Positions 1 to 1,237 of a DNA stretch of 1,237 nt are shown piece by piece (position 1 is the stretch's first letter; each line of letters opens with the position of its first letter). Under the pieces are notes generated by a model, which ran no database searches, was not told the origin of the DNA, and was given only the letters and a program-made list of their open reading frames with translations. Source of the DNA: Escherichia coli (GTDB lineage: Bacteria; Pseudomonadota; Gammaproteobacteria; Enterobacterales; Enterobacteriaceae). Location of the stretch: NCBI RefSeq assembly GCF_003334315.1, contig NZ_QOWR01000119.1, one strand, 5' to 3'. The translations under genes were made by a program, and so were the position numbers.

Positions 1-614
1 GCCTGCCGGGGCAGCAGTATGATGAGGAGTCCGGCCTGTATTACAACCGCCACCGCTATTATGACCCGCTGCAGGGGCGATATATCACTCAGGATCCGAT
101 TGGACTGAAGGGGGGATGGAACCTGTATGGATATCAATTGAATCCGATATCAGACATCGACCCCCTGGGTTTATCTATGTGGGAGGATGCAAAATCGGGG
201 GCATGTACTAATGGTCTTTGCGGCACACTATCCGCTATGATAGGTCCAGATAAATTTGATTCTATAGATAGCACCGCATATGACGCCTTAAATAAAATAA
301 ATAGCCAATCTATTTGCGAAGATAAAGAGTTCGCTGGTTTAATATGTAAGGATAATAGTGGCAGATATTTCTCAACAGCACCTAACCGAGGAGAAAGAAA
401 AGGATCATATCCATTCAATAGCCCTTGCCCTAATGGTACTGAGAAAGTATCAGCTTATCATACTCATGGTGCAGATAGTCATGGAGAATATTGGGACGAA
501 ATATTTTCAGGTAAAGATGAGAAAATAGTTAAAAGTAAAGATAACAATATCAAGTCATTTTATTTAGGTACGCCCAGTGGTAATTTTAAAGCAATAGATA
601 ACCACGGGAAGTAA
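1..614 (+). CDS. Rhs-family polymorphic toxin, 3' portion (5'-partial): end of the RHS repeat-associated core plus a variable C-terminal toxin domain
   Basis: Frame 3 is open from position 3 to the TAA at 612..614 with no upstream stop, so the gene starts outside the window. The translation begins [57 protein letters not shown], which is the hallmark C-terminal end of the Rhs core (YD repeat followed by the PxxxxDPxGL boundary motif). The start at 138 in the ORF track is an in-frame TTG (Leu), not a real start. Which Rhs paralog this is cannot be determined from the window. Confidence 0.93.
159..173 (+). other. DPLGL core/toxin demarcation motif of Rhs (predicted autoproteolytic release site region)
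   Basis: Codons gac-ccc-ctg-ggt-tta encode DPLGL at 159..173. A first DPIGL lies at 93..107. In Rhs proteins the conserved PxxxxDPxGL motif marks the junction between the conserved core and the variable C-terminal toxin. Confidence 0.85.
174..611 (+). other. Variable C-terminal (Rhs-CT) toxin domain, 146 aa, family unassigned
   Basis: This is the segment after DPLGL: [18 protein letters not shown]…[33 protein letters not shown]…NHGK. It is AT-rich (about one-third GC by eye, versus about 60% GC in the first 60 nt of the window). It contains 5 Cys and a His cluster (HTHGADSH). No HExxH, HNH or obvious deaminase motif was seen. Confidence 0.75.
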
Positions 615-639: not shown

Positions 640-1023
640 ATGTCTGCAGAGTTCATGGTAATATGTAAAAAAATATTGTTTAGGAACTGTGTCATTGTAT
701 CTTTGTTTGTTTTTACATACAACACATGGGCGCAGTGTAATAATAATATTAAAATAATGCGCAAGTATGAAAGTGAAGGTAAATATACCGTTAGAAATTT
801 GGTTAAAAATAAAGCTATAGCATTGGAATTAGCTGAGATATATGTTAAGAATCGTTATGGACAGGATGCCGCAGAAGAAGAAAAACCATACGAAATCACT
901 GAGTTAACAACAAGTTGGGTTGTTGAAGGTACCATTCACTCAGACCAAATTGCTGGTGGGGTTTTTATTATAGAAATAGGCAAAAATGATGGGAGAATTC
1001 TGAATTTTGGCCACGGAAAATAA
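640..1023 (+). CDS. Putative cognate Rhs immunity protein (127 aa) with a signal-peptide-like or membrane-anchor N-terminus
   Basis: Complete ORF from ATG 640 to TAA 1021..1023, same strand and 25 bp downstream of the rhs stop, with the same AT-rich composition as the toxin domain. This is the canonical position of an rhsI immunity gene. The N-terminus (MSAEFMVICKKILFRNCVIVSLFVFTYNTWAQC) has basic residues followed by a hydrophobic stretch of about 11 residues and a possible signal peptidase I site (TWA|Q). The C-terminal half (…AEEEKPYEITELTTSWVVEGT…AGGVFIIEIGKNDGRILNF…) looks to me like the small NTF2-like/YbbC-type immunity proteins found beside E. coli rhs genes, but that is an unverified recollection. 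Confidence 0.7.
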   Translation: MSAEFMVICKKILFRNCVIVSLFVFTYNTWAQCNNNIKIMRKYESEGKYTVRNLVKNKAIALELAEIYVKNRYGQDAAEEEKPYEITELTTSWVVEGTIHSDQIAGGVFIIEIGKNDGRILNFGHGK

Positions 1024-1033
1024 GTATGTAAGG

Positions 1034-1056
1034 GGTGATGATGCCAACTTACTGAT
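1034..1056 (+). repeat. IS1 left terminal inverted repeat (IRL)
   Basis: GGTGATGATGCCAACTTACTGAT differs at one position from the canonical IRL I recall (GGTGATGCTGCCAACTTACTGAT). The exact start is ambiguous by 1-2 nt because of the preceding G run (1032..1035). Confidence 0.85.
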
Positions 1057-1088
1057 TTAGTGTATGATGGTGTTTTTGAGGTGCTCCA

Positions 1089-1237
1089 GTGGCTTCTGTT
1101 TCTATCAGCTGTCCCTCCTGTTCAGCTACTGACGGGGTGGTGCGTAACGGCAAAAGCACCGCCGGACATCAGCGCTATCTCTGCTCTCACTGCCGTAAAA
1201 CATGGCAACTGCAGTTCACTTACACCGCTTCTCAACC
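1089..1237 (+). CDS. insA: IS1 InsA (transposition repressor / N-terminal part of the InsAB' transposase), 3'-partial
   Basis: GTG at 1089 followed by codons for [48 protein letters not shown], the InsA zinc-finger region (CxxC…CxxC). The frame runs off the window end. Confidence 0.93.

What the first reader, a model, noticed from the sequence alone, without database searches (positions are those of the whole stretch)
1034..1056. IS1 IRL differs by one base from the canonical sequence as recalled
Position 8 of the IRL is A here (GGTGATGATGCC…), where I recall C in canonical IS1 (GGTGATGCTGCC…). The rest of the visible IS1 left end matches my recollection. This may simply reflect one of the known IS1 isoforms. 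IRL bases contribute to transposase and InsA binding, so it could affect activity.
Basis: partly seen in the sequence, partly recalled or inferred. Interest (0 to 1): 0.2.

Follow-up and report, generated by a model that had tools for sequence, protein, structure and literature searches.

The report
Common natural variant of IS1 end
The single-base difference at the left end of this IS1 insertion sequence is real, but it is an ordinary natural allele found in about 2,000 other mobile IS1 copies in E. coli genomes.

Summary
IS1 starts exactly at window 1034, and base 8 of its left inverted repeat (window 1041) is A. All six K-12 IS1 copies and the IS1 of plasmid R100 have C there. The other 203 visible IS1 bases are identical to K-12 IS1A/E.

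The A is not a private oddity. The exact A-type 40-mer occurs 2,072 times in 336 of 5,426 complete E. coli genomes, up to 37 copies per genome. It also occurs in 98 plasmids of Escherichia, Salmonella, Klebsiella and Enterobacter. The C-type occurs at least 56,294 times, T 331 times and G 9 times.

Nine of 12 sampled A-type copies are one identical 768-bp isoform, which equals the R100 IS1 with only C8A. Six of 11 full-length copies carry perfect 9-bp target duplications at different sites, so the allele is transposition-competent.

IS1's own right repeat already has A at position 8. That position lies outside the IHF-like core. It is the first base of the -35-like hexamer, where neither C nor A matches consensus.

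Verdict: a minority natural IS1 isoform of low interest. A quantitative effect on activity is untested.

The parts
1..614 (+). 3' end of rhsB: the end of the Rhs core (PxxxxDPxGL motif, 144-173) followed by the AT-rich C-terminal toxin tip (DUF4329). It ends at a premature TAA at 612-614.
   Evidence: RefSeq hits annotate it as rhsB. Pfam families RHS and DUF4329 are recorded on the homologous genes. GC falls from 0.53 to about 0.30-0.37 after about position 200.
640..1023 (+). yhhH, the cognate immunity gene (Imm-NTF2-2), intact at 127 aa.
   Evidence: The ORF is listed. The exact protein is found in many genomes with PF15631 recorded. RefSeq annotates it as yhhH.
1025..1033 (.). The 9 host bases next to IS1 (TATGTAAGG). 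This is the expected target duplication if this is a simple insertion. The second copy would lie beyond the window.
   Evidence: Comparison with the empty site gives ...GTATGTAAGG|ATAATC. The 9-bp duplication rule was seen in sister copies. This part is an inference for this copy.
1034..1237 (+). Left 204 nt of IS1. The element runs off the window end.
   Evidence: 203 of 204 positions match K-12 IS1A/E, and 204 of 204 match the ATCC 8739 copy. Exact 204-nt matches occur in many genomes and plasmids.
1034..1056 (+). IS1 left terminal inverted repeat (IRL, 23 bp), GGTGATGATGCCAACTTACTGAT.
1041..1041 (+). The variant base: A at IRL position 8, where canonical IS1 has C.
1041..1068 (+). Promoter-like site for insA/insAB' that overlaps the IRL: -35-like ATGCCA (1041-1046), a 16-nt spacer, and -10-like TATGAT (1063-1068).
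   Evidence: This is a consensus scan result. Published work states that the weak IS1 promoter partially overlaps the IRL (PMC12428005). The exact hexamer assignment is the scan's and is not experimental.
1045..1057 (-). IHF-consensus-like core (AATCAGTAAGTTG, fitting WATCARNNNNTTR) at IRL positions 12-24. The variant base lies 4 nt outside it.
   Evidence: Pattern match. That IHF binds IS1 ends is established knowledge (Gamas et al. 1987) and was not tested here.
1089..1237 (+). 5' part of insA (GTG start; [16 protein letters not shown]...), encoding the zinc-ribbon N-terminus shared by InsA and the transposase InsAB'.
   Evidence: The K-12 annotation places insA at IS1 nt 56-331. The sequence is identical over this stretch.

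Best explanation
Window 1034-1237 is the left end of an ordinary IS1 element. It lies 10 bp downstream of the yhhH stop codon in the rhsB-yhhH toxin/immunity locus of an E. coli or Shigella-type genome. The A at IRL position 8 is an inherited allele of a minority but widespread natural IS1 lineage. Most carriers are a 768-bp isoform identical to the IS1 of plasmid R100 except for C8A. The lineage is mobile, so the base is functionally tolerated. The transposase InsAB' and the repressor InsA already recognise an A at this position in the right repeat. The base lies outside the IHF-like core. In the -35-like hexamer it replaces one non-consensus base with another. Shown here: the sequence, the element boundary, the allele frequencies, isoform identity, and target duplications in sister copies. 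Inferred: this particular copy inherited the A from a donor copy in its own genome, and its activity is roughly wild-type.
For: Boundary and base. Canonical C in all six K-12 IS1 copies and in R100. The exact A-type 40-mer occurs at 2,072 places in 336 of 5,426 complete E. coli genomes, with a median of 3 and a maximum of 37 per genome. The C-type occurs at 56,294 or more places in 4,305 genomes, T at 331 places and G at 9 places. A-type copies are in 98 plasmid records: 69 Escherichia, 25 Salmonella, 2 Klebsiella, 1 Enterobacter and 1 uncultured. Nine of 12 sampled A-type copies are identical 768-bp elements, and they differ from the R100 IS1 only at nt 8. They encode the same transposase accession, WP_095033700.1, as R100. 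Six of 11 full-length sampled copies have perfect 9-bp target duplications at six different sites: gatB, a sel1 gene, an O-antigen glycosyltransferase, pdeB, a fructose PTS gene and an IncX3 plasmid. The IRR has A at position 8, and 8A lowers IRL/IRR mismatches from 5 to 4 over 23 bp. The -35-like hexamer is ATGCCA against canonical CTGCCA, both 4 of 6 to consensus. The IHF-like core covers positions 12-24.
Against: The right end of this copy is outside the window, so its completeness, its isoform body and its target duplication are unknown. The exact junction occurs in none of 5,426 complete E. coli genomes, in no GTDB species representative and in no JGI metagenome contig. I therefore could not confirm that sister A-type copies exist in the source genome. 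No experiment compares the activity of 8A with 8C. Abundance reflects history as well as activity. ISfinder could not be queried, so I do not know whether the allele has a catalogue name.
Confidence: 0.9

Rival explanations
1. The A at 1041 is a private point mutation of this one copy, or a sequencing or assembly error. It was not inherited from an A-type donor.
For: The source genome was not found, so no sister copies could be inspected. The same window carries another private base, the nonsense change at 612. This shows the source has some unique substitutions.
Against: The very same allele exists in 2,072 copies in E. coli genomes and in 98 plasmids. It is about 230 times more frequent than G at that position. 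A coincidental hit on the commonest alternative allele is less likely than inheritance.
Confidence: 0.07
2. 8A is functionally significant. By making the IRL more like the IRR, or by changing the -35 region or InsA operator, it measurably alters transposition or autorepression. On this view it helped this lineage expand.
For: 8A removes one IRL/IRR mismatch. PMC12903888 speculates that the higher IRL/IRR similarity of IS1F explains its greater mobility when transposase is supplied. Some genomes hold 25-37 A-type copies. The base is the first position of the -35-like hexamer.
Against: Neither C nor A matches the -35 consensus T. C-type copies are 27 times more numerous and reach 65 per genome. 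Expansions can be explained by founder effects in IS1-rich lineages. There is no experimental comparison, and the hypothesis in PMC12903888 is itself untested.
Confidence: 0.12
3. The yhhH|IRL junction in the window was made by an IS1-mediated adjacent deletion, not by a fresh insertion. The deletion would have started from an A-type IS1 that already lay a few hundred bp downstream.
For: Strain 2017.04.03CC differs from the window by 1 nt over 1,033 host bases. It has an identical A-type IS1 in the same orientation 308 bp downstream of the window's junction, itself without a target duplication. Four of 10 full-length sampled copies lack duplications, as does the further copy. IS1-associated rearrangements are therefore common.
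Against: There is no direct evidence because the right end is not visible. Several independent IS1 insertions occur in this intergenic or orphan region in other strains, so an independent insertion is equally plausible.
Confidence: 0.3

Closest known systems
IS1 of plasmid R100 (called IS1R in ISfinder by my recollection; NC_002134 nt 21225-21992)
   Same: The common A-type 768-bp isoform is identical to it at 767 of 768 positions and encodes the same transposase, WP_095033700.1. The window's 204 nt match it at 203 of 204.
   Different: The only difference is position 8 of the IRL: A here and C in R100.
E. coli K-12 IS1A/IS1E, called the 'consensus' mobile IS1 in PMC12428005
   Same: Identical to the window over IS1 nt 1-204 except position 8. 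The IRL, promoter region and insA start have the same layout.
   Different: C at position 8. The body of the common A-type isoform differs from IS1A at 7 further positions beyond nt 204. The window cannot show which body it has.
E. coli K-12 IS1B/IS1C
   Same: NCBI names the A-type transposase 'IS1-like element IS1B family'. The A-type isoform is 3 nt away from K-12 IS1B.
   Different: K-12 IS1B has C at position 8 and T at nt 127, where the window has C. It also has A at nt 704, which gives Leu to Gln in InsB.

Membership tests
IS1 (IS1 family insertion sequence) | A terminal inverted repeat that starts GGTGATG...CCAACTTACTGAT and lies exactly at the break with host DNA. | tested here: met
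   22 of 23 positions match the K-12 and R100 IRL. Host identity ends at 1033 when compared with empty sites.
IS1 (IS1 family insertion sequence) | insA reading frame starting at nt 56, encoding the zinc-ribbon N-terminus. | tested here: met
   Window 1089-1237 is identical to K-12 insA nt 1-149. Only the first 49 codons are visible.
IS1 (IS1 family insertion sequence) | A 768-bp element with a matching IRR, the A6C frameshift site and the insB' DDE domain. | not testable with these tools
   The window ends at IS1 nt 204, and the source contig was not found. All of these features are present in identical-IRL sister copies.
IS1 (IS1 family insertion sequence) | 8-9 bp direct target duplication. 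| not testable with these tools
   The right junction is outside the window. Six of 11 full-length A-type sister copies have perfect 9-bp duplications.
A-type (8A) IS1 isoform = R100 IS1 + C8A | A at IRL position 8, with nt 1-204 otherwise identical to the R100 IS1. | tested here: met
   204 of 204 positions match the ATCC 8739 copy and the other A-type copies.
A-type (8A) IS1 isoform = R100 IS1 + C8A | R100-type body at nt 262, 298, 301, 304, 393, 396 and 444, as opposed to an IS1A-type body. | not testable with these tools
   These positions lie beyond the window. Two of the 12 sampled 8A copies have IS1A-like bodies, so the body is not certain.
Named ISfinder isoform | Exact match of the IRL to a catalogued ISfinder entry. 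| not testable with these tools
   ISfinder is not available here. Literature searches for isoform names returned no IR sequences.

The most novel reading that the evidence does not exclude
The C8A change, which makes the IRL more like the IRR, raises transposase binding or synapsis, or weakens InsA repression. On this reading it contributed to the expansions of 25-37 copies seen in some E. coli lineages, and it would be a natural hyperactive-end allele of IS1.
Probability: 0.08. Interest if true: 0.3.

Novelty: already known. Interest (0 to 1): 0.06.

Why it matters
It matters little. It shows that position 8 of the IS1 left repeat is naturally polymorphic: about 96% C, 3.5% A, 0.6% T and traces of G. 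The A allele marks a mobile sub-lineage of the R100-type IS1. That makes it usable as a lineage marker when tracing IS1 copies in genomes and plasmids. If the allele did change end activity, it would be a simple natural handle on how IS1 ends are recognised, but nothing here requires that.

Tried and rejected
1. I looked for the source genome and the element's right end. The exact junction is contiguous in no complete E. coli genome: only 8 records cover at least 80% of the query, and all do so as two separated pieces. It gave 0 hits in GTDB species representatives and 0 in JGI metagenome contigs.

2. A 44-mer around the private nonsense base also gave 0 hits in both collections.

3. A look-up of contigs encoding the exact YhhH protein returned only uninterrupted sites or sites interrupted differently.

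4. I tried to name the isoform from the literature. A search for the 12-mer GGTGATGATGCC returned only unrelated primer sequences. A search for ISfinder isoform names returned resistance-plasmid papers without IR sequences. The Mahillon and Chandler review is not held.

5. I rejected sequencing error as the main reading, because the allele recurs thousands of times.

6. I rejected loss of function, because of the target duplications and the copy numbers.

7. I considered an outward hybrid promoter from the IRL into yhhH. The scan found no minus-strand promoter-like site.

Full report
**What is in the window**

The 1,237-base window holds three things.

- Positions 1-614 are the 3' end of rhsB. 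This covers the end of the Rhs core with its PxxxxDPxGL motif ([11 protein letters not shown], nt 144-173), followed by an AT-rich C-terminal toxin tip.
- Positions 640-1023 are yhhH, a 127-aa immunity gene.
- From 1034 to the end of the window lies the left end of IS1.

RefSeq E. coli genomes annotate the matching DNA as rhsB and yhhH. The homologous genes carry the Pfam families RHS and DUF4329 (toxin) and Imm-NTF2-2 (immunity). GC content falls from 0.53 in the core to about 0.30-0.37 in the tip and the immunity gene. It rises again in IS1.

**Checking the observation**

Ten genomes with an uninterrupted locus read ...AAGTATGTAAGG|ATAATCAAAC. The window reads ...AAGTATGTAAGG|GGTGATGATGCC. 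Host DNA therefore ends at 1033 and IS1 starts exactly at 1034.

- K-12 IS1A, B, C, D, E and F all have C at position 8.
- The IS1 of plasmid R100 also has C there.
- Over the 204 visible nucleotides the window differs from K-12 IS1A/E only at this base.

**Is the A unusual?**

It is not. I searched for the first 40 nt of the element, keeping exact matches only, in 5,426 complete E. coli genomes. I ran the search with each of the four bases at position 8.

| Base at position 8 | Places | Genomes | Copies per genome |
|---|---|---|---|
| C | 56,294 or more (a lower bound, because the 40-piece limit was reached in 225 records) | 4,305 | up to 65 |
| A | 2,072 | 336 | median 3, up to 37 |
| T | 331 | 180 | up to 15 |
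| G | 9 | 9 | 1 each |

The shares are roughly 95.9% C, 3.5% A, 0.56% T and 0.015% G. In the plasmid collection the A-type 40-mer is in 98 records: 69 Escherichia, 25 Salmonella, 2 Klebsiella, 1 Enterobacter and 1 uncultured. The whole 204-nt stretch also has many 100% matches.

**What the A-type copies are**

I fetched 12 A-type copies from different places.

- Nine are one identical 768-bp element.
- This element differs from the R100 IS1 by exactly one nucleotide, position 8. It encodes the same transposase accession, WP_095033700.1.
- It is 3 nt from K-12 IS1B and 8 nt from K-12 IS1A.
- Two further 8A copies have IS1A-like bodies, and one is truncated by IS26.

The window's 204 nt cannot tell the R100-type body from the IS1A-type body, because the two are identical over that stretch apart from position 8.

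**Is the allele active?**

- Six of the 11 full-length sampled copies are flanked by perfect 9-bp direct repeats. All six are at different sites: gatB, a sel1-repeat gene, an O-antigen glycosyltransferase, pdeB, a fructose PTS gene and an IncX3 plasmid. That is the signature of IS1 transposition.
- Up to 37 copies occur per genome. The 8A end is therefore a working end.
- The copies without duplications sit at truncated genes or next to other IS1 copies. This is consistent with IS1-associated deletions or recombination.

**Why one would expect tolerance**

- IRL and IRR of canonical IS1 differ at positions 4, 8, 9, 10 and 19 of the 23-bp repeat, and the IRR has A at position 8. InsA and InsAB' bind both ends (PMC12428005 and PMC12903888). 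An A at position 8 is therefore already part of a recognised end. 8A merely lowers the IRL/IRR mismatches from 5 to 4.
- An IHF-consensus-like core (AATCAGTAAGTTG) covers IRL positions 12-24, so position 8 lies outside it.
- A consensus scan places a promoter-like site at ATGCCA (1041-1046), a 16-nt spacer, and TATGAT (1063-1068). This agrees with the published statement that the weak IS1 promoter partly overlaps the IRL.
- The variant is the first base of the -35-like hexamer. The consensus there is T, so C to A swaps one non-consensus base for another.
- The hexamer assignment is a scan result, not an experiment. No experimental comparison of 8C and 8A exists in what I could read.

**A possible functional twist**

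PMC12903888 speculates that the greater IRL/IRR similarity of IS1F explains its higher mobility when transposase is supplied in trans. By the same logic 8A could slightly raise end activity. The data here neither require nor exclude this. C-type copies remain 27 times more numerous, and copy number reflects lineage history. I give this reading about 0.1.

**Context of this particular copy**

The yhhH|IS1 junction is found contiguous in none of the 5,426 complete E. coli genomes. It is also absent from GTDB species representatives and from JGI metagenome contigs. The source is therefore unidentified. It could be a draft E. coli or a Shigella-type genome, but that is a guess.

The closest host match is strain 2017.04.03CC, with 1 difference in 1,033 nt. 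That strain has 25 A-type copies. One of them, the identical isoform, lies in the same orientation 308 bp further downstream and has no target duplication. The window's junction may thus be a fresh insertion, with expected duplication TATGTAAGG. It may instead be an IS1-mediated adjacent deletion from such an ancestor. Only the right end, which is outside the window, would tell.

**Comparison with the known, and verdict**

This is IS1, with the left end of a minority natural isoform that is best described as the R100 IS1 with C8A.

- Features met: the IRL, the boundary and the insA start.
- Features that cannot be seen in the window: the IRR, the frameshift site, the DDE domain and the target duplication.
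- Not checked: whether ISfinder lists the isoform by name.

The finding is ordinary.

Noticed in passing
window 612 (codon 612-614): The window has T where 11 of 11 fetched comparators have G. None of the 2,709 complete E. coli genomes that hold this region has the window's exact 66-mer. The change is GAA to TAA. It truncates the RhsB C-terminal toxin by 18 residues (...DNHGK* instead of ...DNHGKEITNRKGLPNVCRVHGNM*). It looks like a private nonsense mutation, consistent with decay of the toxin gene while the immunity gene stays intact.
   Followed up: partly
IS1 IRL position 8, other alleles (E. coli complete genomes): T at position 8 occurs 331 times in 180 genomes, up to 15 per genome, so it is another amplified allele. 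It would turn the -35-like hexamer into TTGCCA (5 of 6 to consensus). G occurs only 9 times, always as a single copy.
   Followed up: partly
L003:9164-9931 (K-12 IS1B) compared with L027:21225-21992 (R100 IS1): K-12 IS1B/C differ from the R100 IS1 only at nt 127 (no change to the InsA protein) and nt 704 (Leu to Gln in InsB: SVELHDK becomes SVEQHDK). PMC12428005 suggests that L81F may explain why IS1B, C and D are immobile. However, the F81 transposase WP_095033700.1 belongs to elements that have clearly transposed. The Leu to Gln change is therefore the better candidate for IS1B/C.
   Followed up: partly
L028:3842-4609 (E. coli 2017.04.03CC, NZ_AP025205.2): An identical A-type IS1, in the same orientation, lies 308 bp downstream of the window's insertion point and has no target duplication. 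On its right it abuts a truncated gene near yhhJ. Several other strains have independent IS1 insertions in this stretch after yhhH, so the region seems to be a frequent IS1 landing and rearrangement zone.
   Followed up: partly
L002:724-2268 (E. coli ATCC 8739): Two IS1 copies of different types lie head to tail and are separated by only 9 bp (ctatgcaac). One is IS1F-like with an IRL starting GGTAATGC, and the other is the A-type isoform. No target duplication flanks the second copy.
   Followed up: no
L022 and L023 (E. coli A134_1EC and strain 300081): Two 8A copies have IS1A-like bodies, 4-6 nt from IS1A and 5-7 nt from the common A-type isoform, and both have perfect 9-bp duplications. This suggests either gene conversion between IS1 copies or an independent C8A mutation.
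   Followed up: no
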